Source of the DNA: Verrucomicrobiales bacterium
GTDB lineage: Bacteria > Verrucomicrobiota > Verrucomicrobiia > Methylacidiphilales > JAAUTS01
Assembly: GCA_031265105.1 (NCBI GenBank)
Contig: JAISDC010000082.1
Location: 1 to 20,839, forward strand
Reading direction: 5' to 3'
DNA length: 20,839 nt
The notes under the pieces were generated by a model. The model was not told the origin of the DNA and did no database searches. It saw only the letters and a program-made list of their open reading frames with translations. Below are positions 3,813 to 20,839 of this stretch, one piece after another (within the stretch, counting starts at the first letter, position 1; every line of letters starts with the position of its first letter). The position numbers and the translations under genes are program-made.

Positions 3813-5621
3813 ATGTCGCTCCTGCAACTCAACAACATCACGCTGCAATACGGCGCGGCGCCCTTGCTCGCTGGCGTCGATTTCCAGCTCGACGAGGGCG
3901 AGCGCGTGTGCTTGCTGGGCCGCAACGGCACGGGCAAGACCAGCCTGCTGCGGGTCATCGCCGGCGAGGAAACGCCCAACGGCGGCGAGGTCATCGTCAG
4001 CGGCGGTAAAATCATCACGCGGCTGCCGCAGGAAATTCCTGACAACTTAACCGGCGACACCGTCAGCGTCATTCGCGACGGACTGCCCGCTGACCGTCAC
4101 GAGGAGGAATGGGAAACGGCACGGCGCATCGAGACGCTGCTGGCGGCGATGAAGCTGCCCGCTGACGCTGACTTCACGGCGCTGTCCGGCGGCCTGCGGC
4201 GTCGCGTGCTGCTGGCGCGGGCACTGGCGGGGCGGCCCGACGCGCTGCTGCTCGACGAGCCGACCAACCATCTCGACATCGACTCGATTCTGTGGCTGGA
4301 GAATTTTTTGCTGGCGCAAAAAACCGCGTTGCTGTTCACCACGCACGACCGCGCGTTCCTGCAGCGGCTGGCCACGCGCATCGTCGAACTGGATCGCGGC
4401 AAACTCTCCTCGTGGGACTGCGATTACGCAACCTACCTTGTCCGCAAGGAAGCGTGGCTCGAAGCCGAGGAAAAAAACTGGGCGACATTCGATAAAAAAC
4501 TGACGCAAGAAGAAGCCTGGCTGCGGCAAGGGGTCAAAGCCCGCCGCACCCGCAACGAGGGCCGGGTCCGCGCGCTGGAGCAAATGCGCCGCGAGCGCAG
4601 CCAGCGGCGCGAACGGCTCGGCAACGCCAGGCTCAGCCTCAGCGAGGCCGAGGTGTCGGGCCGCAAAGTCATCACCGCCGAAAACCTCGGCTTCACCTAC
4701 GGCGACCGCCCCATCGTCAGCGGCTTCAGCACGGAAATCTGGCGCGGCGACAAAATCGGCATCATCGGCCCGAACGGCGCGGGCAAGACCACGCTACTGA
4801 AATTATTGCTGGGGCAACTATCACCGTCAGCGGGCCGCGCGCGGCACGGGACGAATTTGCAAGTTGCCTATCTCGACCAACTCCGCGCCATCAATAACGA
4901 GAAAACCGTGGCGGAGAATGTCGCCGGCGCCGCGGCAAGCATCACATTCCAGGGCCGGTCGCGACATATTCATAGTTACTTGTCAGACTTCCTGTTCGCG
5001 CCCGACCGCGCGCGCTCTCCCGCCAAGGTTTTGTCCGGCGGCGAGCGCAACCGGCTGCTGCTGGCAAAATTGTTTTTGCAACCCGCCAACGTGCTGGCGC
5101 TTGACGAACCGACCAACGACCTCGACGCCGAGACGCTGGAGTTGCTGGAAAATTTATTGGTGGAATACGACGGCACGCTGCTGCTGGTGTCGCACGACCG
5201 CGCCTTCCTGGACGAAGTTTGCGCCAGCACGCTGGTGTTCGGCGCTGACGGTGAGGTGACGGAATACCATGGCGGCTATAGCGATTGGTTGAAGCACGCT
5301 GCCAATGAACGAAAAATATCATCCGCTGACACTGACACAAAAAAATCCCCCGCTGACGTGGCGGTGAAAAAATCCTGCCGCCCGCGCAAATTCCTTAATC
5401 GCGAACAATGGGAGCTTGACGCCCTGCCTGGCAAAATCGAGCGACTCGAAGCCGAGCAAGAGCAAGTTTCGCAACAACTCTGGGATCCCGAACTATACCA
5501 AAAATCGCCTGAGAAAATCCCCGAACTCAAGTCACGTTCAGCGGCGCTGGAACAGGAAAGCAAAGCCGCCTACGCCCGCTGGGAGGAACTGGAGCAGCTC
5601 CGCCGGGAGTGCGGTGGCTGA
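3813..5621 (+). CDS. uup: ABC-F family ATP-binding protein Uup (tandem ABC domains plus C-terminal coiled-coil/DNA-binding tail)
   Basis: MSLLQLNNITLQYGAAPLL...GRNGTGKTSLLRV (Walker A 1), LSGGLRRRVLLARAL (signature 1), LLLDEPTNHLD (Walker B 1), GPNGAGKTTLLK (Walker A 2), LSGGERNRLLLAKL (signature 2), LALDEPTNDLD (Walker B 2), and the QEEAWLRQGVKARRTRNEGRVRALEQMRRER linker. It is collinear with E. coli Uup (MSLISMHGAWL...). The ORF-track start at 3717 is a TTG immediately after the MIF stop, so I prefer the in-frame ATG at 3813. Confidence 0.9.
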   Translation: MSLLQLNNITLQYGAAPLLAGVDFQLDEGERVCLLGRNGTGKTSLLRVIAGEETPNGGEVIVSGGKIITRLPQEIPDNLTGDTVSVIRDGLPADRHEEEWETARRIETLLAAMKLPADADFTALSGGLRRRVLLARALAGRPDALLLDEPTNHLDIDSILWLENFLLAQKTALLFTTHDRAFLQRLATRIVELDRGKLSSWDCDYATYLVRKEAWLEAEEKNWATFDKKLTQEEAWLRQGVKARRTRNEGRVRALEQMRRERSQRRERLGNARLSLSEAEVSGRKVITAENLGFTYGDRPIVSGFSTEIWRGDKIGIIGPNGAGKTTLLKLLLGQLSPSAGRARHGTNLQVAYLDQLRAINNEKTVAENVAGAAASITFQGRSRHIHSYLSDFLFAPDRARSPAKVLSGGERNRLLLAKLFLQPANVLALDEPTNDLDAETLELLENLLVEYDGTLLLVSHDRAFLDEVCASTLVFGADGEVTEYHGGYSDWLKHAANERKISSADTDTKKSPADVAVKKSCRPRKFLNREQWELDALPGKIERLEAEQEQVSQQLWDPELYQKSPEKIPELKSRSAALEQESKAAYARWEELEQLRRECGG

Positions 5622-5644
5622 CAAAGCGGTTGGGCACAGAGAGA

Positions 5645-5725
5645 CACAGAGCAGGCACAGAGTTCCACAGAAATTTTCTCTGTGGCTCCCGGTGCCTGCT
5701 CTGTGTGTGCTGCGGGCTGTTTTTA
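5645..5725 (+). terminator. long imperfect hairpin plus T-run downstream of uup. It is built from CACAGAG word repeats.
   Basis: CACAGAGCAGGCAC (5645-5658) pairs with GTGCCTGCTCTGTG (5692-5705). There is an inner stem CCACAGA (5665-5671) / TCTGTGG (5678-5684), then GCTGTTTTTAG at 5716-5726. Confidence 0.5.
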
Positions 5726-5965
5726 GAATTGATGGCGGCAGCCCGCTGTTAGTCTCCAGGATTTGTCGTACTTGTCGCCGAAAGAGGCTTCGTAGTCGAG
5801 GTGGAGTTGATTGTCAGCGTCAGCGCCGGGGGCTCGGTAATCTATATCGCTGCGGCCGTAACCGGCGTAAATTCCCAGATAGAGGTCACTGTCAGTGGAC
5901 AAGGTAAACTTAGTTATTTGTTCTTGGTTAAAATAGTGGTTTGAGGCTTGGTTGCTTCCCGCGCG
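5726..5965 (-). pseudogene. start-less remnant of an autotransporter beta-barrel domain, paralogous to the 3' end of the autotransporter at 18264..20839
   Basis: Minus-strand frame reads ...QEQITKFTLSTDSDLYLGIYAGYGRSDIDYRAPGADADNQLHLDYEASFGDKYDKSWRL... The autotransporter reads KFTLSADSDLYLGVFAGYGRSDLDYRTPGTDGELNSYYGG. About 80/99 nt are identical between 5813..5911 (reverse complement) and 20388..20486. The remnant has no Met start and is bounded by in-frame stops (TGA at 5968..5966, TAA at 5725..5723). Confidence 0.45.
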
Positions 5966-6078
5966 TCACCCTGAGCGGAGGCGAAGGGGCGGGTTGGCTC
6001 AGCAATGGAGCGGGCCGGTCCTGCGACGCGCTACGCTTGCCCAAGATGGGCGGGGACGCCAGCATGATGAAAATATAC

Positions 6079-8487: not shown

Positions 8488-9627
8488 CTAATCGGCCTGT
8501 TCCGCCAAGCCGGGCTGGCTTTCGCCGTCGCGGAGTTTGGTGATGGTTTTGTCGAAGCGGTCGAGGTCGCGGCCGGCTTTTTCGTAATCGTCCTGCGCCT
8601 GGCGGATGCGCTGGCCGCTGTTGACGAAGTCCTTGCGGAAGTTCTGGAAATGTTTGTCCATGTCCTGGATGGCGCGCAACAGCACGTTGGCGTTTTCCTG
8701 CATTTCGTAACCGCGGAACGCCAGCGCCACGGCGTATAACGTGGCGGCCAGCGTGTTCGGCGAGACGACGCTGACTTTGACTTTGCGGCAGTGCTCGGTC
8801 AGCTCGGGCAGCTTGAGGATTTCGTAATACAGACTTTCGCTCGGCACGAACAGGAAGGCCTGGTCGGTGGTGCCGAGTTCGGGCCGGACATACTTCTTCG
8901 CAATGTCAGCGGCCATCAGCTTGATGACCGCGGCGAGTTCCTTGCGCGCGGTTTCCCGCCCGGCCTCGTCATTGGCCGCGTCGAGCAGCGCGGCGATGCG
9001 GTCCTTGGGGAATTTGGCGTCCACGCACAGGCGCAGTTGCTTGATGCGGATGGTGGCGTCCGGCTGGCAGCCTTCCGCCAGGCGCGGCTGCAATTCGTAG
9101 GCGCCCTGCGGCAGAATGTCCGCCAGCAGCAGTTCCAACTCGGCCTCGCCGAAATTACCCTGGAGCTTCGGCGCGCCGAGAATCTGGTTGAGTTCGCCGA
9201 CCTGCTGGCTGACCCGCAACATCTGGTCGGCGCTGGCCTTCAAGTCGCCGAGGCTCCTGGTCATGTCCTTGAACGCGGAGAAATTCTGTTCCAGGTTTTC
9301 CTGCAACCGCCGCTCGACATTGGCGCGGATTTCCTGCAAGCGCTGCGCGGTCTGGTGTTGCAGTGACTCGAACCGCTGTTCCATCACCAGCGACTGGTTG
9401 GTCAGCGCGTCCTGGATGCTCTTGCGCAACAGCTCGCTGTTGGCGGAATTGAAATCGCGGAAATCACTCTTCTGATCGCCGAGGCTTTTTTGCAACAACT
9501 CGCGCAACCCGGCCAGTTGTTGTCCCTGGCTGCTGTGCAAGTCGGGCGCCAGCCGCGACAGCAGCCACAGGCCGACGGCCAGCACCAGCAGCACCAGCAC
9601 CAATAACATGACGGTCACCATTCCCAT
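8488..9627 (-). CDS. rmuC: DNA recombination protein RmuC
   Basis: N-terminal TM helix (MGMVTVMLLVLVLLVLAVGLWLL), a long coiled-coil region, and a C-terminal RmuC-type block (PDATIRIKQLRLCVDAKFP...LFVPSESLYYEIL...VSPNTLAATL). Confidence 0.8.
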   Translation of the reverse strand: MGMVTVMLLVLVLLVLAVGLWLLSRLAPDLHSSQGQQLAGLRELLQKSLGDQKSDFRDFNSANSELLRKSIQDALTNQSLVMEQRFESLQHQTAQRLQEIRANVERRLQENLEQNFSAFKDMTRSLGDLKASADQMLRVSQQVGELNQILGAPKLQGNFGEAELELLLADILPQGAYELQPRLAEGCQPDATIRIKQLRLCVDAKFPKDRIAALLDAANDEAGRETARKELAAVIKLMAADIAKKYVRPELGTTDQAFLFVPSESLYYEILKLPELTEHCRKVKVSVVSPNTLAATLYAVALAFRGYEMQENANVLLRAIQDMDKHFQNFRKDFVNSGQRIRQAQDDYEKAGRDLDRFDKTITKLRDGESQPGLAEQAD

Positions 9628-9766
9628 GCGCCGAGCTTACCCGCCGGCGCTCGCGCGGCAAGCCTGCCGTCATCCTTACAAAGAGATCATGGAGTTATTG
9701 GAGGAAGGGTTGCGGCAAGCAAAGGTACTGCTCCAATTCCTCCGTGCGCTCTTTGTAAAAAAGTAG

Positions 9767-11251
9767 TCACTGCTCCATGCTGGACAATTGCGCCAGCTTC
9801 ACGCGCAGCCGGAACCACAGGCTGCCCGCGTCATACCGGTTCAGGTCCTCGGCGTCAGCGGCGGCGAAATCCGCCGCGAGCATCCGCTCAACGTCAGCGG
9901 CGAAGGCACGGTCGTTGATGACGGCGGCCAGTTCGAAGTTCAGCATGAACGAGCGGTAGTCCGCGTTCACCGAGCCGATGATCGCCAGGTCATCGTCCGC
10001 AAGCAACACCTTCTGGTGCATGAAGCCGGGGCGGTAGCGGTAAATTTGCACGCCCGCGTCGCGCATGGCCGGATAATACGAGAACGACGACCACCACGGC
10101 AGCCAGTGGTCGGGCCGCGCCGGCAGCAGAATCCGCACCTCCACGCCGCGCAAGGCCGCCTGGGTCAGCGCCTGCCGCAGCACCGAGTCCGGCACGAAGT
10201 ACGGGCTGGCCAGCCACAGCCGGCGCCGGGCCGCCTGGATGATGGTGTCGTACACCGGCTGGCAGATGTTGCACGGGTCGGCCGGGCCGCTGGCGAAGAC
10301 GATGGCGGGGAGGGATGATTGATTATTTGTCGGTGGCTCAACCGCGGCGTCAGTGTCACCGTCAGCGGCAGTATTCAAATAATCAATAGAAAATAATCCA
10401 TTATCAATGCCCTCCGCATACCGCCAGTCCTCCGCGAAGTTCACCCGCAACGCGCGGATGGCCGGGCCGCGCAACTCCAGGTGCGTGTCGCGCCACGAGT
10501 CGAAGCGCGCGCCGCCGGTGAGGTACTCGTCCGCGGCATTCAGCCCGCCGAGGAACGCCACCGCGTCGTCCACCAACACCAGCTTGCGGTGGTTGCGGAA
10601 ATTGATTTGAAACCGCATCCCGACGCGGCGGTTGGTGACGAACCCGCTGACCTGCACGCCCGCGCGCCGCAGCGCGGCGAGGTAGCCGACGGTCATGTGT
10701 TTCGAGCCGATGCCGTCGTACAGCACCCAAGTCTTCACCCCGCGGGCGGCGGCGGCGATGAGCGCGTCCTTCAGCCGGTTGCCGAGCGCGTCGTCGCTGA
10801 TGATGAAGAACTGCACCGCCACCGTGCGGCGGGCGCGCCCGATGGCGTCCAGCATGGCGGCAAACGCGGCCTGGCCGTTGACCAGTAGCCGCGCCGTGTT
10901 GCCGCCGGTGGCCGGCAACCCGCGCAAGCGTTCCAGCAGCCGCGGCACATCGGCGTATTTCTCGGCAAAGTCAACGCGGGCCGCTGACATGGAGTGTTGC
11001 GCGGCGGCGAGGAGTCGCGCGAGGTCGCGGTCGGCGCCGTGGTCGGCGCGGAGGTAGCCGGAGAAGCGGGACTCGCCGAACACCAGGAACAGCGGGATGG
11101 CGACGAGGGGCAGAAAAAACAGCGCCAGGCCCCAGCCCACCGCCGCCTGCGGGGTGCGCGCGATGAACAGCGCCTTGGGAATCAGCAGCCAGCCGGTGAT
11201 TTGCACCACCGCCAGCAGCAGTGTTGGCACCCAATGCCAGTAAGTTTCCAT
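9767..11251 (-). CDS. cls: cardiolipin synthase (phospholipase D superfamily, two HKD motifs)
   Basis: Two N-terminal TM helices, then HRKLVLVDD and MHQKVLLADD...GSVNADYRS, which are HxK-x4-D motifs. Length 494 aa, as for ClsA. Confidence 0.85.
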   Translation of the reverse strand: METYWHWVPTLLLAVVQITGWLLIPKALFIARTPQAAVGWGLALFFLPLVAIPLFLVFGESRFSGYLRADHGADRDLARLLAAAQHSMSAARVDFAEKYADVPRLLERLRGLPATGGNTARLLVNGQAAFAAMLDAIGRARRTVAVQFFIISDDALGNRLKDALIAAAARGVKTWVLYDGIGSKHMTVGYLAALRRAGVQVSGFVTNRRVGMRFQINFRNHRKLVLVDDAVAFLGGLNAADEYLTGGARFDSWRDTHLELRGPAIRALRVNFAEDWRYAEGIDNGLFSIDYLNTAADGDTDAAVEPPTNNQSSLPAIVFASGPADPCNICQPVYDTIIQAARRRLWLASPYFVPDSVLRQALTQAALRGVEVRILLPARPDHWLPWWSSFSYYPAMRDAGVQIYRYRPGFMHQKVLLADDDLAIIGSVNADYRSFMLNFELAAVINDRAFAADVERMLAADFAAADAEDLNRYDAGSLWFRLRVKLAQLSSMEQ

Positions 11252-13856: not shown

Positions 13857-14407
13857 CAGCGCGGCTGCGCGCGCAAACCGGCGAGTTTGTCCTTCAACTG
13901 CTCGCGCTCGGCGGCGCTCAGTTTGTCGATGAACAGCACGCCGTGCAAGTGGTCGAACTCATGCTGCACCGCGCGCCCCAGCAAGCCGCCCGCCTCAAAC
14001 TCGCGCGGTTGCAAATCCAGGTCCTGGTACCGCACCTTGACGCGGAAGCCGCGGTTGAGGTCGATGTTGATGCCGGGGAAGCTCAGGCAACCCTCGTTGT
14101 CGAGTTCCTTTTTCTTGGTGATTTCGATGTGCGGATTGATGAGCGTCAGCGGCATGATGCTTTGCACATCGGCCTCCTTGCCGTCCAGCCACAGGCGCGA
14201 CTTGCGCTTCGAGTCGGCGGGAATGTCAATCACCGCCAGTTGCAGCGCGCGCCCGACCTGCTGCGCCGCCAGCCCGACGCCCTCGGCTTTGCGCATCGTG
14301 TCGAGCATGTCCCGCGCGAGTTGGCGCAATTCCGGGGTTACTTTGCCGACCGTCGCGCCCCGCTGCCGCAGCACCGGGTCGCCGTATTTCACTATGGGTA
14401 AAATCAT
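13856..14407 (-). CDS. def: peptide deformylase
   Basis: Motif 1 GVGLAAQQVG, motif 2 EGCLSFPG, motif 3 QHEFDHLHG (HExxH). The ORF-track start at 14449 is a TTG. I prefer ATG 14407 (MILPIVKYGDPVL...), which matches Def N-termini. Confidence 0.85.
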   Translation of the reverse strand: MILPIVKYGDPVLRQRGATVGKVTPELRQLARDMLDTMRKAEGVGLAAQQVGRALQLAVIDIPADSKRKSRLWLDGKEADVQSIMPLTLINPHIEITKKKELDNEGCLSFPGINIDLNRGFRVKVRYQDLDLQPREFEAGGLLGRAVQHEFDHLHGVLFIDKLSAAEREQLKDKLAGLRAQPR

Positions 14408-14454
14408 AAATGCGCAGCCAGCATACAATATCACCGCGCGTGTTGCCAACAGGC

Positions 14455-15927
14455 TTATTGCTGTCCGCTGGCCGGGGGCGCTGACGGTGCCGGCGCGGGT
14501 TGCGCGGGCGGCGCCGGTTCAGCGTCAGCGGCGGGGGTGCCGAGGACGGACGGGAGTTTGAGGCCGACGTTGTTGAGCAATTCGTGCAGCGGCGGCAGCG
14601 CCGTCGCCAGCTTGTTCAAAAAGTTCGCGGTGCTGGTGCCGCCGTTCGCGCCGCCGTTGTCCCAGACGACGACTTTGTCGAATTTGATGTTCTTGATCGC
14701 CTCGGTTTGCGCGCCGACGAGCACGGGCATTTGTTCGACCAGCAGCAGATTGATTGCCAGCGCCGGGTTCGCGCCGGCGGCTTTGGTCAGGCGCTCGAAG
14801 CCCTCGGCGCGGCCGTTCAGCGCGGCCTTGATGCCGTCGGCCTCGGCGAGGCGCAGTTGCCGCAAGCCGTCGGCCTCCGCGGTTTTGACGGCGAGCAAGC
14901 CGTCGGCCTCGCCCTGCTTGGTTTTGCGCACGGCGTCGGCGGCGCCCTCGGCGGTTTTCACGCGCACGGCGGCGTCCGCCTCGGCCTGGATGACTTGCTG
15001 CGATTTGGTCTGGCGCGCCGGCACCAGCACGTCGGCCTCGTACGTCGCCTCGGTCACGCGGGCGCGCGCCATCTCGGCCTCCTGTTTGGCGAGCGCGGAG
15101 TTTTTCGCGGTCAGCGCGACGGCGACTTGCTCGGCGGTCTCGGCGAGTTTGCGCGCCTCGGCCTCGCGCGTGCGCCGCGCGGCGTCACTGTCAGCGATGG
15201 CGACCAGCGAGGTGTTCTCGCCCTGCCGCGTCTCGGCTTGCAGCGCGGCGACGGTCACGGCCTGCTCCATGCGCGCGCGGGCGGCGCCGACCGCGCCGTC
15301 GCGGTCCGCCTCGGCGACGCGGATGCTGGCGGTGTTGATGCGCTCGGCGGCGACTTCCTTGCCCAGCGAGTCGATGTAGCCGACGTCGTCGGTGATGTCG
15401 CGGATGTTGACGTTAATGAGGCGCAGGCCGATTTTTTCCAACTCGACGGAAATGGAGTCGCGCACGCTGACCAGCAGTTTGTCACGGTCAGCGTTGATTT
15501 CCTCAATCGAGAGCGAGGCGATGACCTGGCGCATCTGGCCGGTGATGATGTCGAGCGCGCTGGACATGATTTGCGGCAGCGTGAGGCCGAGCAGGCGCTC
15601 CGCGGCGTTCTGCATGATTTCCGGCTCGGTGGACAGGCCGATCATGAACGTGCTCGGCACGTCCACGCGGATTTTTTGCAACGACAGCGCGTCCTCCAGG
15701 TTGACCTCGACGCTGACGGGGCGCAAGTCCATGTATTGATAACCTTGGATGACCGGCCACACAAACGAGCCGCCGCCGTGGATGCAGCGCGCGCCGCGGC
15801 CGCCGGCGACTTTGCCGTAGATGACGAGGATGCGGTCGGACGGGCATTTTTTGTAGCACTTCAACAGTGACAGCATGGTCACGAAAAACAACAGTGCGAC
15901 GGCGATGATGGCGATGGCGAATGACAT
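14455..15927 (-). CDS. flotillin-like SPFH/band-7 protein (YqiK/FloT-like)
   Basis: N-terminal TM segment, SPFH core, and a long Ala/Glu-rich coiled coil (AEAEARKLAETAEQ...AEADGLRQLRLAEADGI). AAGGAA Shine-Dalgarno sequence 7 nt upstream of the ATG. Confidence 0.85.
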   Translation of the reverse strand: MSFAIAIIAVALLFFVTMLSLLKCYKKCPSDRILVIYGKVAGGRGARCIHGGGSFVWPVIQGYQYMDLRPVSVEVNLEDALSLQKIRVDVPSTFMIGLSTEPEIMQNAAERLLGLTLPQIMSSALDIITGQMRQVIASLSIEEINADRDKLLVSVRDSISVELEKIGLRLINVNIRDITDDVGYIDSLGKEVAAERINTASIRVAEADRDGAVGAARARMEQAVTVAALQAETRQGENTSLVAIADSDAARRTREAEARKLAETAEQVAVALTAKNSALAKQEAEMARARVTEATYEADVLVPARQTKSQQVIQAEADAAVRVKTAEGAADAVRKTKQGEADGLLAVKTAEADGLRQLRLAEADGIKAALNGRAEGFERLTKAAGANPALAINLLLVEQMPVLVGAQTEAIKNIKFDKVVVWDNGGANGGTSTANFLNKLATALPPLHELLNNVGLKLPSVLGTPAADAEPAPPAQPAPAPSAPPASGQQ

Positions 15928-15981
15928 ATGGTTCCTTGGTTGGTTCGGTTGGTTGAGTTGATTGGGTTGGGGTAAAATTGC

Positions 15982-16554
15982 TTACTCACCGTCAGCGAGC
16001 GGCTCGACGGCGACGCCGGTGCCCTCCAGCCGCAGCACCCGCACCTCCGTGCCGAACGGCGCCGCGCGGTCGCTGACGTTGAACGCCTTGACGGAAACTT
16101 TGCGCCCGCCGCTGACGACGGTGATTTCACCCGCGCCCGCGCCGCGCGGCGGCAGCGGCAAATACACGGTGCCGCTGGCGCCGACAGTTTGCGTCAACTG
16201 GAACGTGCCGTCCTCCGCCAGCCGCGCGAACTGGCGCATCAGCCACACCAGCAGCGCCGCCAGCGCGAACCCGACCAGCGCCGCGAGCAGGGTCGCGGAC
16301 ACGGCGCCGAGGCCGAGTTGCAAACAGCACAAGCCGCCCCAGCCGCTGCCGGTGGCGAACGCGGTGATGGCCTTGAACGAAAACCAGTGTACGCCGGCGT
16401 CACCGTCAGCGTCGGGCGAGTCGAAATCACCGTCAGCGCCGAACAAAGCCATGCCGCCCTGGGCGACGAGCATGGCGGTGCCGAGGATGCCGAGCGTCCA
16501 AAAAATCCGCGCGGCCAGCTCCAGCCCGTCCCACCATTCGACGATAGCATTCAT
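15982..16554 (-). CDS. NfeD-family membrane protein (short YuaF-like form), partner of the downstream flotillin
   Basis: N-terminal hydrophobic helices and a C-terminal OB-fold-like block (GEITVVSGGRKVSVKAFNVSDRAAPFGTEVRVLRLEGTGVAVEPL). This is the conserved nfeD-SPFH operon arrangement. The ORF-track start 16593 is a TTG; I prefer ATG 16554 (MNAIVEWW...). Confidence 0.7.
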   Translation of the reverse strand: MNAIVEWWDGLELAARIFWTLGILGTAMLVAQGGMALFGADGDFDSPDADGDAGVHWFSFKAITAFATGSGWGGLCCLQLGLGAVSATLLAALVGFALAALLVWLMRQFARLAEDGTFQLTQTVGASGTVYLPLPPRGAGAGEITVVSGGRKVSVKAFNVSDRAAPFGTEVRVLRLEGTGVAVEPLADGE

Positions 16555-16676
16555 GCGGGGCCAAAGGTAACGCGCCGGCCCGCCGCCTAACAAGCAAAAT
16601 CAGCGCCAGGTGGAAATTTTCGGCGCCGCGGCGCGCTGCCTTTGCGGTCATTGCTTGCCGGCCCGCCTTTGGCAGT

Positions 16677-16717
16677 AAAAAAAAAAACTTGCGGTCATCC
16701 GGCTATTGTAATACAGT
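16677..16717 (+). promoter_or_regulatory. A11 homopolymer tract immediately upstream of a candidate promoter (TTGCGG - 17 - TACAGT) that reads toward the repeat/autotransporter locus
   Basis: A x11 at 16677-16687. TTGCGG at 16689-16694, a 17-nt spacer, TACAGT at 16712-16717. Confidence 0.25.
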
Positions 16718-16837
16718 CGCGCCCCGTTGCCGCAAACGGCTGATAGTGAAAGCTCCGCCAGCAGGGGGGCTTAAGCCAAAGCGGAAAAGCGGCAACTCCT
16801 TGAAGATGATTGACCTGGGCCATAACCGCAGGACGCC

Positions 16838-16894
16838 GCGCTCACGCGCTCACGCGCTCACGCGCTCACGCGCTCACGCGCTCACGCGCTCACG
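16838..16894. repeat. perfect octanucleotide tandem repeat (GCGCTCAC) x7
   Basis: Seven head-to-tail copies run from 16838 to 16893, preceded by a partial unit. They lie in the divergent intergenic region between nfeD and the 42-bp repeat locus. The unit length is not a multiple of 3. Confidence 0.9.
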
Positions 16895-17059
16895 CGCTCA
16901 CGGTATGACTCTTGCCCTGATTCCTTAATTTCCCCGCCAGTTTTTACCCTTTTCATTCCCCATGCGGTAACATTCCGGCAGGATGCCACCCCGTCACGAT
17001 TAGCGTCACCTCCCGCACGGTATCATACGATTCCTACCTGGCGAGAGCCGTTTCATGCA

Positions 17060-17377
17060 GTGCAGGAAGCGCATACTGCATTGCATGATTTGCCTCCTGC
17101 GGCGCGGGAACCGAATACTGCAACGCATGACGCGCATCCTGCAACGCAGGAGTCGAATACTGCACTGCATGATTCACCTCCTGCGGCGCGGGAACCGCAT
17201 ACTGCAACGCATGACGCGCATCCTGCAATGCAGGAGTCGAATACTGCGCCGCATGATTCACCTCCTGCGGTGCGGGAAGCGCATACTGCAACGCATGACA
17301 CACCTCCTGCCGAGCAGGATTACCCACTTTTGGCGGCTGTGTGGCCGCCATTAAACCAACCCCAAAGGAACCCATGA
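17060..17377 (+). CDS. possible 105-aa repeat protein (14-aa HD/P/T-rich repeats) encoded by the 42-bp array. Coding status and strand are uncertain.
   Basis: GTG start at 17060. Its TGA stop overlaps the ATG of the next gene (ATGA at 17374-17377), which suggests translational coupling. The unit length is a multiple of 3. A minus-strand alternative exists (ATG 17351 to stop 17034: MAATQPPKVGNPARQEV, then a 14-aa repeat alternating PAPQEVNHAAQYST / PALQDARHALQYAV). Neither candidate has a Shine-Dalgarno sequence. Confidence 0.25.
   Translation: MQEAHTALHDLPPAAREPNTATHDAHPATQESNTALHDSPPAAREPHTATHDAHPAMQESNTAPHDSPPAVREAHTATHDTPPAEQDYPLLAAVWPPLNQPQRNP
17073..17324. repeat. 42-bp tandem repeat array, about 6 units, with two alternating unit types forming an 84-bp higher-order repeat
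   Basis: Units start with ATACTGCA at 17073, 17115, 17157, 17199, 17241 and 17283. Odd units read ...GCATGATTYRCCTCCTGCGGYGCGGGAASCGM. Even units read ...AACGCATGACGCGCATCCTGCAAYGCAGGAGTCGA. Units contain short stem-loops such as CCTGCaacGCAGG. All six frames are open across the array. Confidence 0.9.
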
Positions 17378-18129
17378 ATAGAAACCAACATGCAGTCAGC
17401 AACATCAGCGTCAAAAAATACATCCACAAAACCTGGGACGGTATTGACGACTTCTTCACCCAATACGGCGACAACCTCGTCAACGTCCAGACCAAAACCG
17501 ACCCCGGTCTCGCCGACGCCGACATCGCCAATGTCAAGGAAACCACCGCCGCCTACGGCAAATTGAACCAAGCCATTGACGAAGTGGAAAGACTCCTCGC
17601 CGCCCTGCGCGCCCTGCGCATCCAACTCCTCACCCAGCAAACTATGGACCCCGTCCGCGTCCCCCTCATCCAACCCCTCACCACCCTCCTTGCCGCCATC
17701 GAAGGCAAACGCGGCGGCTTGCTCTGGCAAGAAGACCGCCTCACCGACCGCATCTTCCGCAGCCCCAGATGCACCCAGGAAGACTACGAAATGCTCGGCA
17801 TCGTTTACAAACCCAACACTTCAGCCCCCATTGATAACCTCATCGGCAAACTCTACGCCGTGTTTGACGGCGGCAAAGTTCCGATCCATTGGACCCTCCC
17901 GCGCGGCTACCACAACGCCCGCCTCACCGCCAGCACCAACCACGGCGAATGGGTACTACTCTACGAAGGCAGCGAAAGCCACTTCATCGACGCGCGCCCC
18001 ATCCCCGCCATCTCCGAAATCCGCTCCTACAAACTCGAAATCATGGAAACCGGCAAACCCATCGGCAAACCCGCCATCGACAAAATCCTCGTCGGCCAAG
18101 ACATCTCCGTCGAAGAAACCAAACTCTAA
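17374..18129 (+). CDS. hypothetical protein, 251 aa. No domain recognised; no signal peptide.
   Basis: AAAGGAA Shine-Dalgarno sequence 4-5 nt upstream of ATG 17374. Protein-like composition (MNRNQHAVSNISVKKYIHKTWDGIDDFF...). Codon usage has more A/T-ending codons than the core genes and resembles the adjacent autotransporter. A long inverted-repeat terminator follows it. Confidence 0.6.
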   Translation: MNRNQHAVSNISVKKYIHKTWDGIDDFFTQYGDNLVNVQTKTDPGLADADIANVKETTAAYGKLNQAIDEVERLLAALRALRIQLLTQQTMDPVRVPLIQPLTTLLAAIEGKRGGLLWQEDRLTDRIFRSPRCTQEDYEMLGIVYKPNTSAPIDNLIGKLYAVFDGGKVPIHWTLPRGYHNARLTASTNHGEWVLLYEGSESHFIDARPIPAISEIRSYKLEIMETGKPIGKPAIDKILVGQDISVEETKL

Positions 18130-18140
18130 CTAGCCTCATT

Positions 18141-18248
18141 AACGCAAAGACGCAAAGGAACAAAGTAACGCAAAGATTTTTGTTAATTGAAAAACCAAAC
18201 CAAAAAAATCTTCGCGCCTTTGCCCCTTTGTTCCTTTGCGTTAATGCA
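18141..18248. terminator. family B inverted-repeat element pair forming a long hairpin after the 251-aa gene
   Basis: Left arm ATTAACGCAAAGACGCAAAGGAACAAAGTAACGCAAAG, then ATTTTTG. Right arm AAAAAATCTTCGCGCCTTTGCCCCTTTGTTCCTTTGCGTTAAT. Homologous copies are at 11343-11394 and 12533-12553. Confidence 0.55.
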
Positions 18249-18263
18249 GCTCAAAAAAACTTT

Positions 18264-20839
18264 ATGAAAACCTCCAACATGAAAACACGAAAACTAACCC
18301 TGATACTAACCCTCCTCTGCGCCCTCAGCGTCTCCGCGTTGAACATCTTCGCGGAAAACAAAATCGTCAATACCGGCACCGTGGTGGAATCCGGCAGTAC
18401 CTACGCCGCCTCCACCAATCAGTCGGCCCTGACGGTCAGCGGCAGCGGGACGCTGTACGAGGGCACTAACCTTACTTTGTCCAGCACCGAGACCAACCAG
18501 CATGGCGTCTTCGTCAACACCCAAGGCGCGCTATCGTTACGTGACAGCACGGTTTTCACTTCCGCCACTGGCGCTTACGGCATTGCGTTGACCACCACCT
18601 CGTCCGCCAGCCTGGAACGTGTCGCGGTCACGGTCAGCGAAGCGTTTTCGCATGGCATCTATATGTTGAACTCCAAGCTGTCCGTGACCGACGCGACAGT
18701 GGTGATTTCGGCATCCAATAGGAACGGTCATTTCGACGGAATATACATCGGCAACACCAGCGAAGCTGATTTGACAAATGTGAGCGTAGAATTACGGGGC
18801 GACCAGACCAACGGCATCAGCATCCTCAACACCGCCACCGACAAAAGCACCGTCACGGCCACCGGTATCAACATTGCCGCGCAAGGCGAACTTGCCGACG
18901 GTCGGGCCAATGTCAGCGGTGTCACCGTAGAAGGTAACGCGGACCTGCAAATGCGCGATTTTTTAGTCACGGTGCGCGACGGTAATGCGGGCGTGAACAC
19001 TTGGACGAACCCTATACTACGGGTTGACGAGTTTGTGACGCTGCGCAGCGGCACCATCATTATGATTGATAGCGGCGCCGGGATTAATGTCGGCGGCAAC
19101 GGTAATCGCTATGTGGCATTGCACGATGTGGCTATCAGCGCGAGCGGCGAGGACACCCATGCCATTCTTATGGACACGCGCGGGTTGGACATTGATGACA
19201 AAGTTCTGCTGGTTGACGGCGGCAAGTTCATCGCCGAAAACGGGGCGGCGCTCCGGGTGGGGCTGTTCGGCGAGACATCCGAGCTCAATGCCACGCAGTC
19301 CGCGGGCGCCAACTATACCGTCACCATCACCGGCAGCGCCGCCCTCAGCGGCACGGCGGCCATGGAATTCGGCACCACCGCCATTGCCCCCAGCGGCACG
19401 GCCTACGAACTGGTCAACCACGCCCGCATAACCGTGGCGGATGGCTCCACCCTCACCGGTGCCACCAACATCCACGGCAACTCCGACGTGAATATAGAAC
19501 TCACCGACAACTCCGCCCTGACCGGCGACCTTACCGCCAGCGGCTCGTCCAACACCACCCTCAGCGGCAGCAACGGCGCCACCATCACCGGCACCGTCAG
19601 CGGCAACGATAACGCCGTCATCGACCTCACCGTCAGAGGCCCCGGCAGCACCATCATCAGTGACATTAACCAAAACGACGACGCAGCCGTCACCATCACC
19701 CTCGATAACAGCGCCACCGGCCAAGGCGGCTACCACGGCGGCAACCTCATCACCGGCAGCGATAGCACCTGGACTTTTGACAAGGACAGCCACGGCAACT
19801 ACGGCGAAAACAATGGCACTTGGAACATCGGCGACTACGAAGTCATCTTCGATAACATGACCCACACCGGCACCGTTAACATCAGCGTCAACACCGACAC
19901 CGGCGACGGCGGCTCTATCACTGTGGATACCGCTGACGGTGAAGGCACCGTCCACATCGACACCACCGGCAACGGTAAACTCAACCCCAACGACGTACTC
20001 CCCGGCGTCGTCACCGGCGACGGCACGGAACACTGGCAATGGGATCCCATCGACTGGGGCATCGACACCATCATCAAAGACGGCGACCACTTCATCAAAC
20101 AAGGCACCAGCCCCGCCGGCGCAGAATTGAACAGCAGCGTAGCCATCCAACAAGCCAGGTGGTTCGCGCAGCAAAACAGCCTGCTCAAACGCATGGGTGA
20201 CCTCCGCTTTTCGTCATCCCGTCAACTCGTCACCTCGTCGTCTGACAAAGCCGTCACCCTCAGCGCTGCCAACCTGATCGAAAACATCTGGCTCAGAAGC
20301 TACGGCCAACAATTAAACGTCGGCAGTAAAGTATCAGGCAAAGCCTACGAACAACTCATCTACGGCGTGGACTTGGGCACTGACCATAAGTTCACCTTGT
20401 CCGCTGACAGTGACTTATATCTGGGCGTCTTCGCCGGTTACGGCCGCAGCGACCTCGACTACCGCACCCCCGGCACTGACGGTGAACTCAACTCCTACTA
20501 CGGCGGCCTCTACGCCACGTGGTTACACAGCAGCGGCCTCTACATCGACGCTACCGTCAAAGCCGCCAGCGTGGACAACAATCTAAAAGCTCCCTACAGC
20601 GGCAGTCAAATCACCGCCAACTACAGTGATGTGAACCTCGGCGGCAGCATCGAAATCGGGAAGAAGTTCACCTTCGCTGATGATTGGTTCATCGAACCCC
20701 AGTTTCAAGTCAACTACCTCCACATCCTCGCCGAGGACTATCAAGCCGGCCCCATGAGCATCACCGCCAGCGACCTCGACGCCCTCCAGTTCAGAATCGG
20801 CAGCGTATTCGGCCGCACCCTCAAGCTCGCCAACGGCGG
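18264..20839 (+). CDS. classical (type Va) autotransporter: signal peptide, Gly/Thr/Asn-rich beta-helical passenger, C-terminal beta-barrel. Partial: runs off the window end.
   Basis: MKTSNMKTRKLTLILTLLCALSVSALNIFA signal peptide. The passenger has repetitive beta-helix-like tracts (TLSGSNGATITGTVSGNDNAVIDLTV...). The junction reads AIQQARWFAQQNSLLKRMGDLRF...NIWLRSYGQQ, followed by barrel strands (YLGVFAGYGRSDLDY...GGLYATWLH...GGSIEIGKKF...). No stop occurs before 20839, hence it is absent from the ORF track. Confidence 0.85.
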   Translation, partial: MKTSNMKTRKLTLILTLLCALSVSALNIFAENKIVNTGTVVESGSTYAASTNQSALTVSGSGTLYEGTNLTLSSTETNQHGVFVNTQGALSLRDSTVFTSATGAYGIALTTTSSASLERVAVTVSEAFSHGIYMLNSKLSVTDATVVISASNRNGHFDGIYIGNTSEADLTNVSVELRGDQTNGISILNTATDKSTVTATGINIAAQGELADGRANVSGVTVEGNADLQMRDFLVTVRDGNAGVNTWTNPILRVDEFVTLRSGTIIMIDSGAGINVGGNGNRYVALHDVAISASGEDTHAILMDTRGLDIDDKVLLVDGGKFIAENGAALRVGLFGETSELNATQSAGANYTVTITGSAALSGTAAMEFGTTAIAPSGTAYELVNHARITVADGSTLTGATNIHGNSDVNIELTDNSALTGDLTASGSSNTTLSGSNGATITGTVSGNDNAVIDLTVRGPGSTIISDINQNDDAAVTITLDNSATGQGGYHGGNLITGSDSTWTFDKDSHGNYGENNGTWNIGDYEVIFDNMTHTGTVNISVNTDTGDGGSITVDTADGEGTVHIDTTGNGKLNPNDVLPGVVTGDGTEHWQWDPIDWGIDTIIKDGDHFIKQGTSPAGAELNSSVAIQQARWFAQQNSLLKRMGDLRFSSSRQLVTSSSDKAVTLSAANLIENIWLRSYGQQLNVGSKVSGKAYEQLIYGVDLGTDHKFTLSADSDLYLGVFAGYGRSDLDYRTPGTDGELNSYYGGLYATWLHSSGLYIDATVKAASVDNNLKAPYSGSQITANYSDVNLGGSIEIGKKFTFADDWFIEPQFQVNYLHILAEDYQAGPMSITASDLDALQFRIGSVFGRTLKLANG

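What the first reader, a model, noticed from the sequence alone, without database searches (positions are those of the whole stretch)
16594..17059. Repeat-dense divergent promoter region: A11 tract, perfect 8-bp repeat (GCGCTCAC)x7 and hairpins, upstream of an adhesin-like locus
The region between nfeD (minus) and the repeat/autotransporter block (plus) contains three elements:
- a homopolymeric A11 run abutting a -35-like TTGCGG (17-bp spacer to TACAGT);
- a hairpin GCCGTTgccgcaAACGGC (16727-16744);
- seven perfect head-to-tail copies of an octamer.

Homopolymer tracts and 7-8-bp tandem repeats upstream of surface-protein genes are classic slipped-strand mispairing switches. Examples are 7-bp repeats upstream of HMW adhesins in Haemophilus and poly-tracts in Neisseria promoters.

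An 8-bp unit shifts promoter and element phasing by about 0.76 helical turn per copy.

The only ORF covering it (16689..16928, RSRAHALT repeats) is just the translation of the repeat.
Basis: partly seen in the sequence, partly recalled or inferred. Interest (0 to 1): 0.7.

Follow-up and report, generated by a model that had tools for sequence, protein, structure and literature searches.

The report
Octamer repeat frameshift switch in leader ORF
The perfect 8-base tandem repeat is real (8 copies, not 7) and most likely sits inside an unannotated leader reading frame, where gaining or losing a copy shifts the frame and would switch an autotransporter (surface-protein) operon on or off in an uncultured Verrucomicrobiales gut-type bacterium.

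Summary
The A11 tract (16677-16687) and the octamer array are real. The array is (GCGCTCAC)x8 at 16838-16901, not x7. The hairpin is mis-read and no better than chance.

The same layout recurs at 7 related loci in Verrucomicrobiales/Opitutaceae MAGs: [8-bp repeat x7-13] - spacer - [self-complementary 21-nt array] - 250-aa gene - autotransporter. The octamer unit differs between loci (GCGCTCAC, CCCTCGCT, CCCCAGCT). The period of 8 is kept and the arrays are perfect or nearly so.

The closest genome (96% identical flanks) has 7 units, A9 and G5, against 8, A11 and G6 here.

At all six loci tested, exactly one strand has a frame open from just before the octamer, through the 21-nt array, to the start of the 250-aa gene. 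An ATG lies 29-44 nt upstream of the octamer at the five loci with upstream sequence. In the window, 8 units give a 40-aa dead end. Seven or ten units give a 187/195-aa ORF whose TGA overlaps the next gene's ATG (ATGA).

So the slipped-strand switch idea is supported. The likely mechanism is translational frameshifting in a leader ORF, not promoter phasing. Expression effects and within-population variation remain untested.

The parts
16677..16687 (+). A11 homopolymer. It occupies -48..-38 relative to the putative -35, the position of an UP-element proximal subsite. The closest relative has A9.
   Evidence: A-rich tracts also lie 5' of the octamer at L081, L082 and L083.
16690..16718 (+). Putative weak promoter TTGCGG-17 nt-TACAGT (7/12 match to consensus). 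Not established.
   Evidence: Read from the sequence. Both hexamers are identical in L001. Not reported by the consensus scan.
16764..16769 (+). G6 tract in the putative 5' leader. L001 has G5.
16806..16928 (+). Leader ORF as it reads with 8 units: ATG 16806, 40 aa (MIDLGHNRRTP-RSRAHALT repeats-GMTLALIP), stop TAA 16926-16928. This is the predicted OFF state.
16838..16901 (+). (GCGCTCAC)x8 perfect octanucleotide tandem repeat. This is the proposed slipped-strand frameshift site.
   Evidence: Copy-number comparison.
16826..17377 (+). Long stop-free frame (position mod 3 = 2). It runs through the octamer, the conserved block and the whole 21-nt array, and ends at TGA 17375-17377, which overlaps ATG 17374 (ATGA). 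It is reached from ATG 16806 only with 7, 10, ... units.
16904..16969 (+). Conserved block just after the octamer, YDSCPDSLISPPVFTLFIPHAV in the long frame. It carries the two out-of-frame stops (TGA 16906, TAA 16926) that end the two OFF frames. It is C-rich and G-poor.
17062..17310 (+). 21-nt-period array of about 12 units (42/84-nt super-period). It is self-complementary and is part of the long frame.
17374..18129 (+). 251-aa gene with SD AAGGA. It belongs to a small family with several copies per MAG. The predicted fold is an N-terminal helical domain plus a C-terminal FN3-like sandwich.
18264..20839 (+). Autotransporter gene (N-terminal MKTSNMKTRKLTLILTLLCALSVSA, which looks like a signal peptide by eye, not run through a predictor; beta-barrel domain). 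It runs off the end of the window.
15982..16554 (-). Divergent NfeD-like membrane protein (ATG at 16554), upstream partner of the Band_7/flotillin gene at 14455-15927.

Best explanation
The (GCGCTCAC)8 array is a hypermutable octanucleotide repeat in the 5' part of an unannotated leader ORF. That ORF heads an operon: leader ORF, then a 251-aa FN3-like protein, then an autotransporter.

Proposed mechanism:
1. Translation starts at ATG 16806, 32 nt before the array.
2. Because 8 is not a multiple of 3, each unit gained or lost by slipped-strand mispairing shifts the frame.
3. In two of the three frames the ribosome stops at conserved stops 5 and 25 nt after the array (TGA 16906, TAA 16926).
4. 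In the third frame it reads about 190 codons through the C-rich spacer and the structured 21-nt array. It terminates on the TGA that overlaps the ATG of the 251-aa gene.
5. The window, with 8 units, is in an OFF frame. Seven or ten units would be ON.

Inferred consequence: full-length leader translation promotes expression of the downstream genes, by termination-reinitiation coupling and/or by shielding a C-rich, G-poor stretch from Rho. In that case repeat number would act as a stochastic ON/OFF switch for the surface protein.

The A11 tract is more likely an UP-element-like, length-polymorphic A tract at the 5' edge of the cassette than a switch.

Shown: the repeat, its conservation of period and position, copy-number differences between genomes, the frame arithmetic, and the ORF continuity. 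Inferred: that the leader is translated, and that its frame state controls downstream expression.
For: (1) Recurrent architecture. An octamer array of 7-13 units, a 46-199 nt spacer, a 21-nt array, a 250-aa gene and then usually an autotransporter recur at window, L001, L081, L082, L083, L084 and L205. The units are GCGCTCAC, CCCTCGCT and CCCCAGCT/CGCCAGCT.

(2) Length polymorphism between the window and L001, whose flanks are 96% identical: 8 vs 7 units, A11 vs A9, G6 vs G5. Related loci sharing a unit have 7, 8, >=9.6 and >=12 copies, or 9 and 13. Six of the seven arrays score 100% unit identity (L081 98%), although the sequence just after the octamer is about 24% diverged between window and L001.

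(3) At all six loci tested, only the + strand has a stop-free frame covering both the octamer and the 21-nt array. None of the 18 minus-strand frames does. At the four OFF loci that frame opens 4-27 nt before the octamer. It ends from 29 nt upstream of the gene ATG to 1 nt into it, or is fused in frame (L084; L081 at +1 unit).

(4) Null model with shuffled spacer and tail and random phase: P(continuous frame) is 0.08-0.44 per locus, with a product of 6e-5.

(5) An ATG lies 29-44 nt upstream of the array at all five loci with upstream sequence. Simulated +/-1 or 2 units give the short/short/long pattern at four of them. L081 is currently in frame (192 aa).

(6) The CPDSLI core after the octamer is invariant as peptide in 5 loci. 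All 5 variable DNA columns there are synonymous in the long frame. My hypergeometric estimate is P about 0.002.

(7) The 78 nt after the octamer have a C/G ratio of 2.0-3.0 in 5 of 7 loci, the 97th percentile within the window. This is compatible with a Rho loading site that would be exposed in the OFF state.

(8) TGA is a normal stop in this genome, so the frame calls stand.
Against: - No Shine-Dalgarno sequence precedes the leader ATG at any locus, whereas the 251-aa gene has a clear AAGGA. No promoter or transcription start is established.
- Outside the CPDSLI core, the conserved block shows no third-position bias (variable columns 14/14/12). The leader peptide is not conserved at L081.
- In the window and L083 the frame homologous to the heptad frame of the other loci is closed by TGA codons. 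The open frame there is a different one, which could be chance (P about 0.25 and 0.19).
- The SD and ATG of the 251-aa gene are unpaired in the predicted fold, so coupling is not obviously required.
- Four of five scorable loci are OFF in the assemblies.
- All comparison sequences are MAG or metagenome contigs. No read-level heterogeneity or expression data could be examined.
- The leader product has no homologues with a known function.
Confidence: 0.55

Rival explanations
1. The octamer lies in the promoter or 5'-UTR. It tunes transcription or mRNA stability in a graded way through spacing or RNA structure, and the long open frame is incidental.
For: - Octanucleotide (GCATCATC x12-15) and heptanucleotide repeats upstream of hmw adhesin genes are documented (PMC3309571; PMC12721329).
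- The leader ATG has no SD.
- An A tract and a weak -35/-10 pair lie 120-160 nt upstream.
- Most of the conserved block lacks a codon-position signature.
Against: - No consensus promoter was found.
- The array does not take part in any long hairpin, and 16725-17060 folds no better than shuffles (z=+0.10). This is unlike the hmw 5'-UTR.
- Frame continuity at six loci, the conserved immediate stops in the two other frames, and the synonymous-only variation in CPDSLI are unexplained by this model.
Confidence: 0.2
2. A neutral microsatellite in a decaying region. The leader is the remnant of an N-terminal extension of the 250-aa gene (still fused in frame at L084). The octamer is an unstable but functionless repeat.
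For: - L084 is fused in frame to the 250-aa gene, and L081 becomes fused at +1 unit.
- The heptad frame is closed by TGA in the window and L083.
- Four of five loci are out of frame.
- L080 lacks the octamer altogether.
Against: - Period 8, copy number 7-13 and position are kept at 7 loci while the unit sequence and flanks diverge.
- An open frame persists at every locus even where its phase changed.
- The arrays remain perfect, which argues for ongoing turnover with retention rather than decay.
Confidence: 0.15
3. The functional element is the DNA or RNA of the repeats themselves, for example protein-binding sites phased every 21 bp (two helical turns) or recombination substrates for cassette exchange. 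The octamer would be a spacer or boundary element.
For: - All eight 21-nt arrays are self-complementary (z = -2.8 to -10).
- The array is swapped for an unrelated 21-nt array between genomes with 96% identical flanks.
- Array sequence and 250-aa paralogue diverge together (81% protein identity against 96% DNA identity in the flanks).
Against: - This gives no explanation for a unit length that is not a multiple of three, the ATG, the frame continuity, or the stop placed on the next start codon.
- No candidate binding protein was identified. The 250-aa protein has a helical plus FN3-like fold with no DNA-binding match.
Confidence: 0.08

Closest known systems
Intragenic repeat (frameshift) phase variation: Neisseria opa (CTCTT in the signal-peptide coding region), H. 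influenzae lic1/licA (CAAT), and Neisseria hpuAB (poly-G with polarity on the downstream gene). Recalled from my own knowledge, not tested here.
   Same: A tandem repeat whose unit is not a multiple of 3 lies a few codons after the start codon. One frame in three is productive. Downstream genes of the operon could be affected by polarity.
   Different: - The unit is an octamer, which is rare.
- The repeat sits in a leader ORF of about 190 codons with no known function rather than in the structural gene.
- The leader ends on or next to the next gene's start codon and runs through a structured 21-nt array.
- The host is an uncultured Verrucomicrobiales bacterium, not a classical pathogen.
H. influenzae HMW1/HMW2 adhesin repeats: 7-bp ATCTTTC in NTHi and 8-bp GCATCATC x12-15 in biogroup aegyptius (PMC3309571). 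They act through a 5'-UTR hairpin processed by RNase III (PMC12721329).
   Same: A 7-8 bp tandem repeat lies upstream of a large secreted adhesin-type gene. Copy number is variable.
   Different: Here the array is not part of any predicted long hairpin. It lies inside an open frame with an upstream ATG. Predicted behaviour depends on number modulo 3 rather than being graded.
Promoter-spacer homopolymer or dinucleotide switches (Neisseria porA/opc poly-tracts, H. influenzae hif TA repeats). Recalled from my own knowledge.
   Same: A long homopolymer (A11) lies next to a -35-like hexamer and is length-polymorphic between relatives.
   Different: The A11 is upstream of the -35 (-48..-38), not between -35 and -10. 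Its length does not change hexamer spacing, and it fits an UP-element position better.

Membership tests
Repeat-mediated translational (frameshift) phase-variable locus | Perfect tandem repeat whose unit length is not a multiple of three | tested here: met
   (GCGCTCAC)x8, 100% identity.
Repeat-mediated translational (frameshift) phase-variable locus | The repeat lies within an ORF downstream of a start codon, and only one frame continues | tested here: met
   ATG 16806 is 32 nt upstream. Frames 0 and 1 stop at 16926 and 16906. Frame 2 is open to 17375. The same pattern holds at L001, L082 and L083. L081 differs: two frames continue, one of them fused to the 250-aa gene. Actual translation was not tested.
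Repeat-mediated translational (frameshift) phase-variable locus | Repeat number varies between closely related genomes or within a population | tested here: inconclusive
   Between genomes: 8 vs 7 units for window vs L001. Related loci have 7, 8, >=9.6, >=12 and 9, 13 units. Within-population heterogeneity could not be examined because no reads were available.
Repeat-mediated translational (frameshift) phase-variable locus | Reversible ON/OFF change of expression with repeat number | not testable with these tools
   Needs reporter fusions or proteomics.
HMW-type promoter/5'-UTR repeat switch | The repeat lies between a mapped promoter and the start codon of the regulated gene, outside any ORF | tested here: not met
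   No consensus promoter was found. The repeat is inside an open frame with an upstream ATG.
HMW-type promoter/5'-UTR repeat switch | The repeat forms one arm of a long 5'-UTR hairpin with a complementary region | tested here: not met
   The fold of 16725-17060 has z=+0.10. The array forms only local GCGC mini-hairpins. No complementary arm was found.
Promoter-spacer homopolymer switch | The tract lies between the -35 and -10 hexamers, so its length changes their spacing | tested here: not met
   A11 (16677-16687) ends 2 nt upstream of TTGCGG (16690).
Autotransporter (type Va secretion), for the downstream gene | C-terminal beta-barrel translocator domain | tested here: met
   PF03797 E=9.3e-32 and TIGR01414 E=2.5e-33. 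The L001 orthologue also has a Beta_helix passenger.
Known RNA families (riboswitch, sRNA, leader) | Match to an Rfam covariance model at its gathering score | tested here: not met
   No hit in the window at gathering threshold. Only sub-threshold hairpin-like (miRNA model) hits on the 21-nt array.

The most novel reading that the evidence does not exclude
A family of phase-variable leader ORFs. An octanucleotide repeat sets the frame of a leader of about 190 codons that must be translated through a self-complementary 21-nt array to reach the start codon of the next gene.

This would give a two- or three-state translational switch for paired FN3-like protein and autotransporter genes, present in several copies per genome in gut Verrucomicrobiales:
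- OFF;
- leader terminating on the next gene's ATG;
- at some loci, an in-frame fusion with the 250-aa protein.

The peptide would matter less than the act of translating, through coupling or protection from Rho. That would explain why the open frame is kept even where its phase and sequence changed.
Probability: 0.3. Interest if true: 0.75.

Novelty: new variant of a known kind. Interest (0 to 1): 0.6.

Why it matters
Repeat-driven phase variation is documented mainly in a few host-adapted pathogens such as Neisseria, Haemophilus, Campylobacter, Helicobacter and Mycoplasma.

If this reading is right, an uncultured Verrucomicrobiales lineage uses the same bet-hedging logic. It does so with an unusual octamer unit, at several related autotransporter operons per genome, and through a leader ORF rather than the structural gene.

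The practical consequences are:
- It points to stochastic surface variation in gut symbionts.
- It flags a class of genes that annotation pipelines miss. At five of the related loci the callers placed a gene on the opposite strand over the 21-nt array (L080, L082, L083, L084) or called only the array part on the plus strand (L205). In the listing for L081 nothing was called upstream of the 250-aa gene.
- It offers a simple test: unit number modulo 3 against expression.
- It explains why MAG contigs break at these loci.

Tried and rejected
- Exact-protein look-ups for three window proteins found nothing. P0001, P0002 and P0010, which include the closest relatives of the window's 251-aa protein, were also not retrievable.
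- Metagenome scan with the 251-aa protein found no relatives.
- Metagenome scan with the conserved-block pattern TGYCCNGAYTCNYTAATTT returned 120 loci. None has an upstream 8-bp tandem repeat, and the one partial block match is AT-rich and unrelated, so I treat them as chance hits.
- Rfam gave nothing at gathering score, only sub-threshold miRNA-like hits on the 21-nt array.
- The sigma-70 consensus scan found no promoter upstream of the octamer in the window, L082 or L083.
- The leader ORF product has no homologues when the window's frame is the query. With the L084 frame as query there is one further family member (P0016) plus unrelated proteins that merely contain RSRAHALT repeats. There are no Pfam or NCBIfam hits.
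- TGA recoding or selenocysteine, considered as an explanation for the in-frame TGAs in the array frames of the window and L083, was rejected. TGA ends 7 of the 14 long ORFs I took as genes in the window. The TGA replaces Cys only at L083, not in the window.
- Codon-position bias over the whole 26-codon block is absent (14/14/12). Only the 6-codon CPDSLI core shows it.
- The afdb50 fold library was unavailable.
- Literature searches for a phase-variable leader ORF or uORF, and for Opitutaceae autotransporters, found nothing.
- The source habitat of the MAGs could not be verified.

Full report
**What is in the sequence**

The window reads ...GCAGT-A11-CT-TTGCGG-17 nt-TACAGT... at 16677-16718. 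A G6 run follows at 16764-16769 and an ATG at 16806. Eight perfect GCGCTCAC units occupy 16838-16901.

The A11 is the only run of nine or more A in the window. The two hexamers match the sigma-70 consensus at 7 of 12 positions. The consensus scan reports no promoter in 16300-18400.

The sequence is CCCCGTTGCCGCAAACGGC, which allows a 4-5 bp stem only. The segments 16719-16840 and 16725-17060 fold no better than dinucleotide shuffles (z=-0.47 and +0.10). No Rfam family and no tRNA is present.

**Genes around it**

On the minus strand lie a Band_7/flotillin gene (14455-15927) and an NfeD-like membrane protein whose ATG is at 16554.

On the plus strand lie:
- a 21/42/84-nt periodic array at 17062-17310;
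- a 251-aa ORF at 17374-18129, preceded by AAGGA;
- a long hairpin at 18137-18246 (z=-9.6);
- an autotransporter from 18264 that runs off the window (PF03797, TIGR01414).

The 251-aa protein has no family assignment. Its AlphaFold model (pLDDT 83) is an N-terminal helical domain plus a C-terminal FN3-like sandwich.

**Relatives**

The flotillin gene led to L001, a Verrucomicrobiales MAG (isolate Gx481_bin192, contig JAISBF010000063.1). It is 96% identical over 13895-16967 and 88% identical over 17401-18259. Nothing is alignable between those two blocks or beyond 18259.

In the aligned intergenic region L001 has A9 instead of A11 and G5 instead of G6. It has six GCGCTCAC units plus one GCGCTCAT unit instead of eight.

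The 251-aa protein belongs to a family of only 15 database proteins. All named members are from Verrucomicrobiales or Opitutaceae MAGs; the rest are unnamed JGI or ENA metagenome proteins. Several MAGs carry multiple copies: four in LBK71 and five in LBK76. I could fetch the DNA for six of them.

**A recurrent cassette**

Tandem-repeat scans show the same layout at seven loci.

| Locus | Octamer | 21-nt array |
|---|---|---|
| window | (GCGCTCAC)x8 | x12 |
| L001 | same unit, x7 | x12 |
| L084 | same unit, x>=12 (contig starts inside the array) | x10 |
| L205 | same unit, x>=9.6 (contig starts inside the array) | x10.5 |
| L082 | (CCCTCGCT)x9 | x15 |
| L083 | (CCCTCGCT)x13 | x8 |
| L081 | (CCCCAGCT)x5 + (CGCCAGCT)x3 | x10 |

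Each cassette is followed by the 250-aa gene. An autotransporter or a large secreted-looking gene usually comes next. L080 has the 21-nt array and the gene but no octamer.

The three octamer units are rotations of one another that differ at two positions. Period, copy range and position are kept while unit sequence and upstream context differ. Upstream neighbours are NfeD, a tRNA plus integrase, an IS200-like transposase, or haem-biosynthesis genes. Six of the seven arrays are perfect (L081 scores 98% and mixes two unit variants), although the DNA immediately after the octamer differs by about 24% between window and L001. That homogeneity is what ongoing slippage produces.

**The octamer is inside an open frame**

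Stop-codon maps show one plus-strand frame at every octamer-bearing locus tested. It is stop-free from just before the octamer, through it, through the spacer and the whole 21-nt array, to the start of the 250-aa gene.

| Locus | Stop-free frame | Gene ATG |
|---|---|---|
| window | 16826-17374; next stop is the TGA of the ATGA at 17374-17377 | 17374 |
| L001 (reverse complement) | 9258-9776 | 9804 |
| L082 | 5365-5982 | 6001 |
| L083 | 4471-4971 | 5001 |
| L081 | 1798-2469; a second frame is fused to the gene | 2474 |
| L084 | fused in frame to the gene | 506 |

None of the 18 minus-strand frames spans both repeats.

I tested this against a null in which spacer and tail are shuffled and the array phase is random. 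The chance of such continuity is 0.08-0.44 per locus, with a product of 6e-5. The loci are not fully independent. Their spacers are unalignable beyond the first ~70 nt, and their arrays have different consensus units.

**Start codon and frame arithmetic**

An ATG lies 29-44 nt upstream of the array at all five loci with upstream sequence:
- window and L001: MIDLGH...
- L082 and L083: MISELDN...
- L081: MRLLTKV...

I simulated the gain or loss of units.
- In the window, 8 units give a 40-aa product ending at TAA 16926.
- 9 or 6 units give 36 or 28 aa ending at TGA 16906.
- 7 or 10 units give a 187- or 195-aa ORF whose TGA overlaps ATG 17374.
- L001, L082 and L083 are likewise one unit away from the long frame.
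- L081 is in frame now (192 aa, stop 1 nt before the ATG). With one more unit it would encode a 446-aa fusion with the 250-aa protein.

The two non-productive frames end within 1-27 nt of the array at five loci. Those stops are embedded in the conserved block.

**Is it coding?**

In the long frame, the block after the octamer reads:
- window: YDSCPDSLISPPVFTLFIPHAV
- L001: YEPCPDSLISRLVFTRLIPHPAV
- L082: HDYCPDSLISSQSFTFSIPNPAG
- L083: LDPCPDSLIFRQSFTLFIPH
- L084: YDSCPDSLISQPVFTHSIPHPAG

In the 18-nt CPDSLI core, all five variable columns are synonymous transitions in this frame and non-synonymous in the frame that gives the seven-codon mini-ORF. By my hypergeometric estimate, 5 of 5 among 7 synonymous out of 18 possible transitions gives P about 0.002. 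This estimate is post hoc.

The rest of the block shows no third-position bias (14/14/12). L081 has an unrelated spacer. The leader ATGs have no SD. The evidence for translation is therefore moderate, not strong.

**The 21-nt array**

Every array is self-complementary (z = -2.8 to -10 against shuffles). The arrays share a GCAGAT/CCAGAT core every 21 nt. In one frame this gives heptads beginning A/P/G-D (ADIDTCG, PDIATCE, PDCATFx, ADSYRPA) and a conserved tail F-D/A-G-G..AR.N.

In the window and L083 that frame is closed by a TGA in alternate units or in every unit. The frame that continues from CPDSLI is the next one. TGA ends 7 of the 14 long ORFs I took as genes in the window, so recoding is not an explanation.

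An open frame thus persists although its phase and peptide changed. That persistence is the main reason I favour 'translation through the leader matters' over 'the peptide matters'. For these two loci alone it could be chance (P about 0.25 and 0.19).

Between the window and L001 the array is replaced by an unrelated 21-nt array although the flanks are 96% identical. The 250-aa gene is only 88% identical and the autotransporter passenger is unalignable. This locus is therefore a hotspot of exchange or diversification.

**How it most likely works**

Shown:
- a perfect, copy-number-polymorphic octamer;
- its position after an ATG;
- the one-in-three frame logic;
- the leader's stop on or next to the next start codon.

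Inferred:
- slipped-strand mispairing toggles the leader between a short dead-end peptide and a full-length read;
- the full-length read favours expression of the 251-aa gene and the autotransporter.

Two routes are possible for the second inference. One is termination-reinitiation at ATGA. The other is cover for the C-rich, G-poor 78 nt after the octamer, which would otherwise be exposed to Rho. That stretch has a C/G ratio of 2.0-3.0 in 5 of 7 loci, the 97th percentile in the window.

The SD of the 251-aa gene is not sequestered in the predicted fold, so coupling is not obligatory.

The A11 occupies -48 to -38 relative to TTGCGG. From my own knowledge, this is the position of the proximal UP-element subsite. 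A-rich tracts sit at the 5' edge of the cassette at L081, L082 and L083 too. Its length differs between relatives, but it cannot change -35/-10 spacing.

**Comparison with known systems**

The logic is that of intragenic repeat phase variation (opa CTCTT, licA CAAT, hpuAB poly-G with polarity; my own knowledge).

Those repeats act through a 5'-UTR hairpin cut by RNase III (PMC12721329). That defining hairpin is absent here, and the repeat lies in a frame, so I do not file the window under that type.

I found no report of a repeat-bearing leader ORF of this kind, nor of phase variation in Verrucomicrobia. The absence of reports in the searched library is weak evidence of novelty.

**Verdict**

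The main limitation is that everything rests on MAG and metagenome consensus sequences. No read-level variation, transcription start or expression data were available.

Noticed in passing
window 17062-17310; L001 5732-5990: The 21-nt-period array is replaced by an unrelated 21-nt-period array (CTCTATCGTCAATAGAGCCGG type) in a genome whose flanks are 96% identical. All eight arrays examined are self-complementary (z -2.8 to -10) and share a (G/C)CAGAT core every 21 nt.
   Followed up: partly
L081 1894-3226; L084 2-1258: At L084 the leader frame is fused in frame to the 250-aa gene with no stop between them. At L081 one extra octamer unit would give a 446-aa leader-250-aa fusion. This suggests a three-state switch, or an ancestral single gene.
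   Followed up: partly
window 18137-18246: A long imperfect hairpin (-48 kcal/mol, z=-9.6) built from ACGCAAAG-type repeats lies between the 251-aa gene and the autotransporter. A similar repeat follows the paralogue at L080 6735-6801.
   Followed up: partly
L001 493-571: A second octamer array, (GCCGCCAA)x~10, lies inside ORF 429-875. That ORF overlaps the ATG (862) of a 274-aa gene with a weak FkbM methyltransferase match. The same leader-ORF logic may apply at an unrelated gene.
   Followed up: partly
L084 1-96; L205 1-77: Two contigs begin inside GCGCTCAC arrays. Assemblies break at these repeats, either because several loci in one genome share the array or because its length varies in the population.
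   Followed up: no
L080, L082, L083, L084, L205 (gene tables): Over the 21-nt array, gene callers placed a gene on the opposite strand (L080, L082, L083, L084) or called only the array part on the plus strand (L205). The frameshifted leader ORF is not annotated as such at any locus.
   Followed up: partly
P0019, P0017, P0018, P0020: RSRAHALT-type peptide repeats, the translation of GCGCTCAC arrays, occur inside unrelated database proteins. One is an IS4/IS5-type transposase (PF01609).
   Followed up: no
L082 4646-5092; L081 200-1520: Different mobile-element neighbours lie immediately upstream of the cassette: an IS200-like Y1 transposase at L082, and a reading frame and a tRNA-like sequence at L081 that I took, by eye and without running a tool, for a tyrosine-recombinase gene and a tRNA gene.
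   Followed up: no
window 16562-16585 / 16621-16644: A 24-nt inverted repeat (79% complementary) lies just upstream of the NfeD-like start codon. The substitutions in L001 are not compensatory.
   Followed up: partly
window 16902-16980: The stretch after the octamer is C-rich and G-poor (C/G 2.2, 97th percentile of the window). The same holds at 5 of 7 loci. This is compatible with a Rho loading site.
   Followed up: partly
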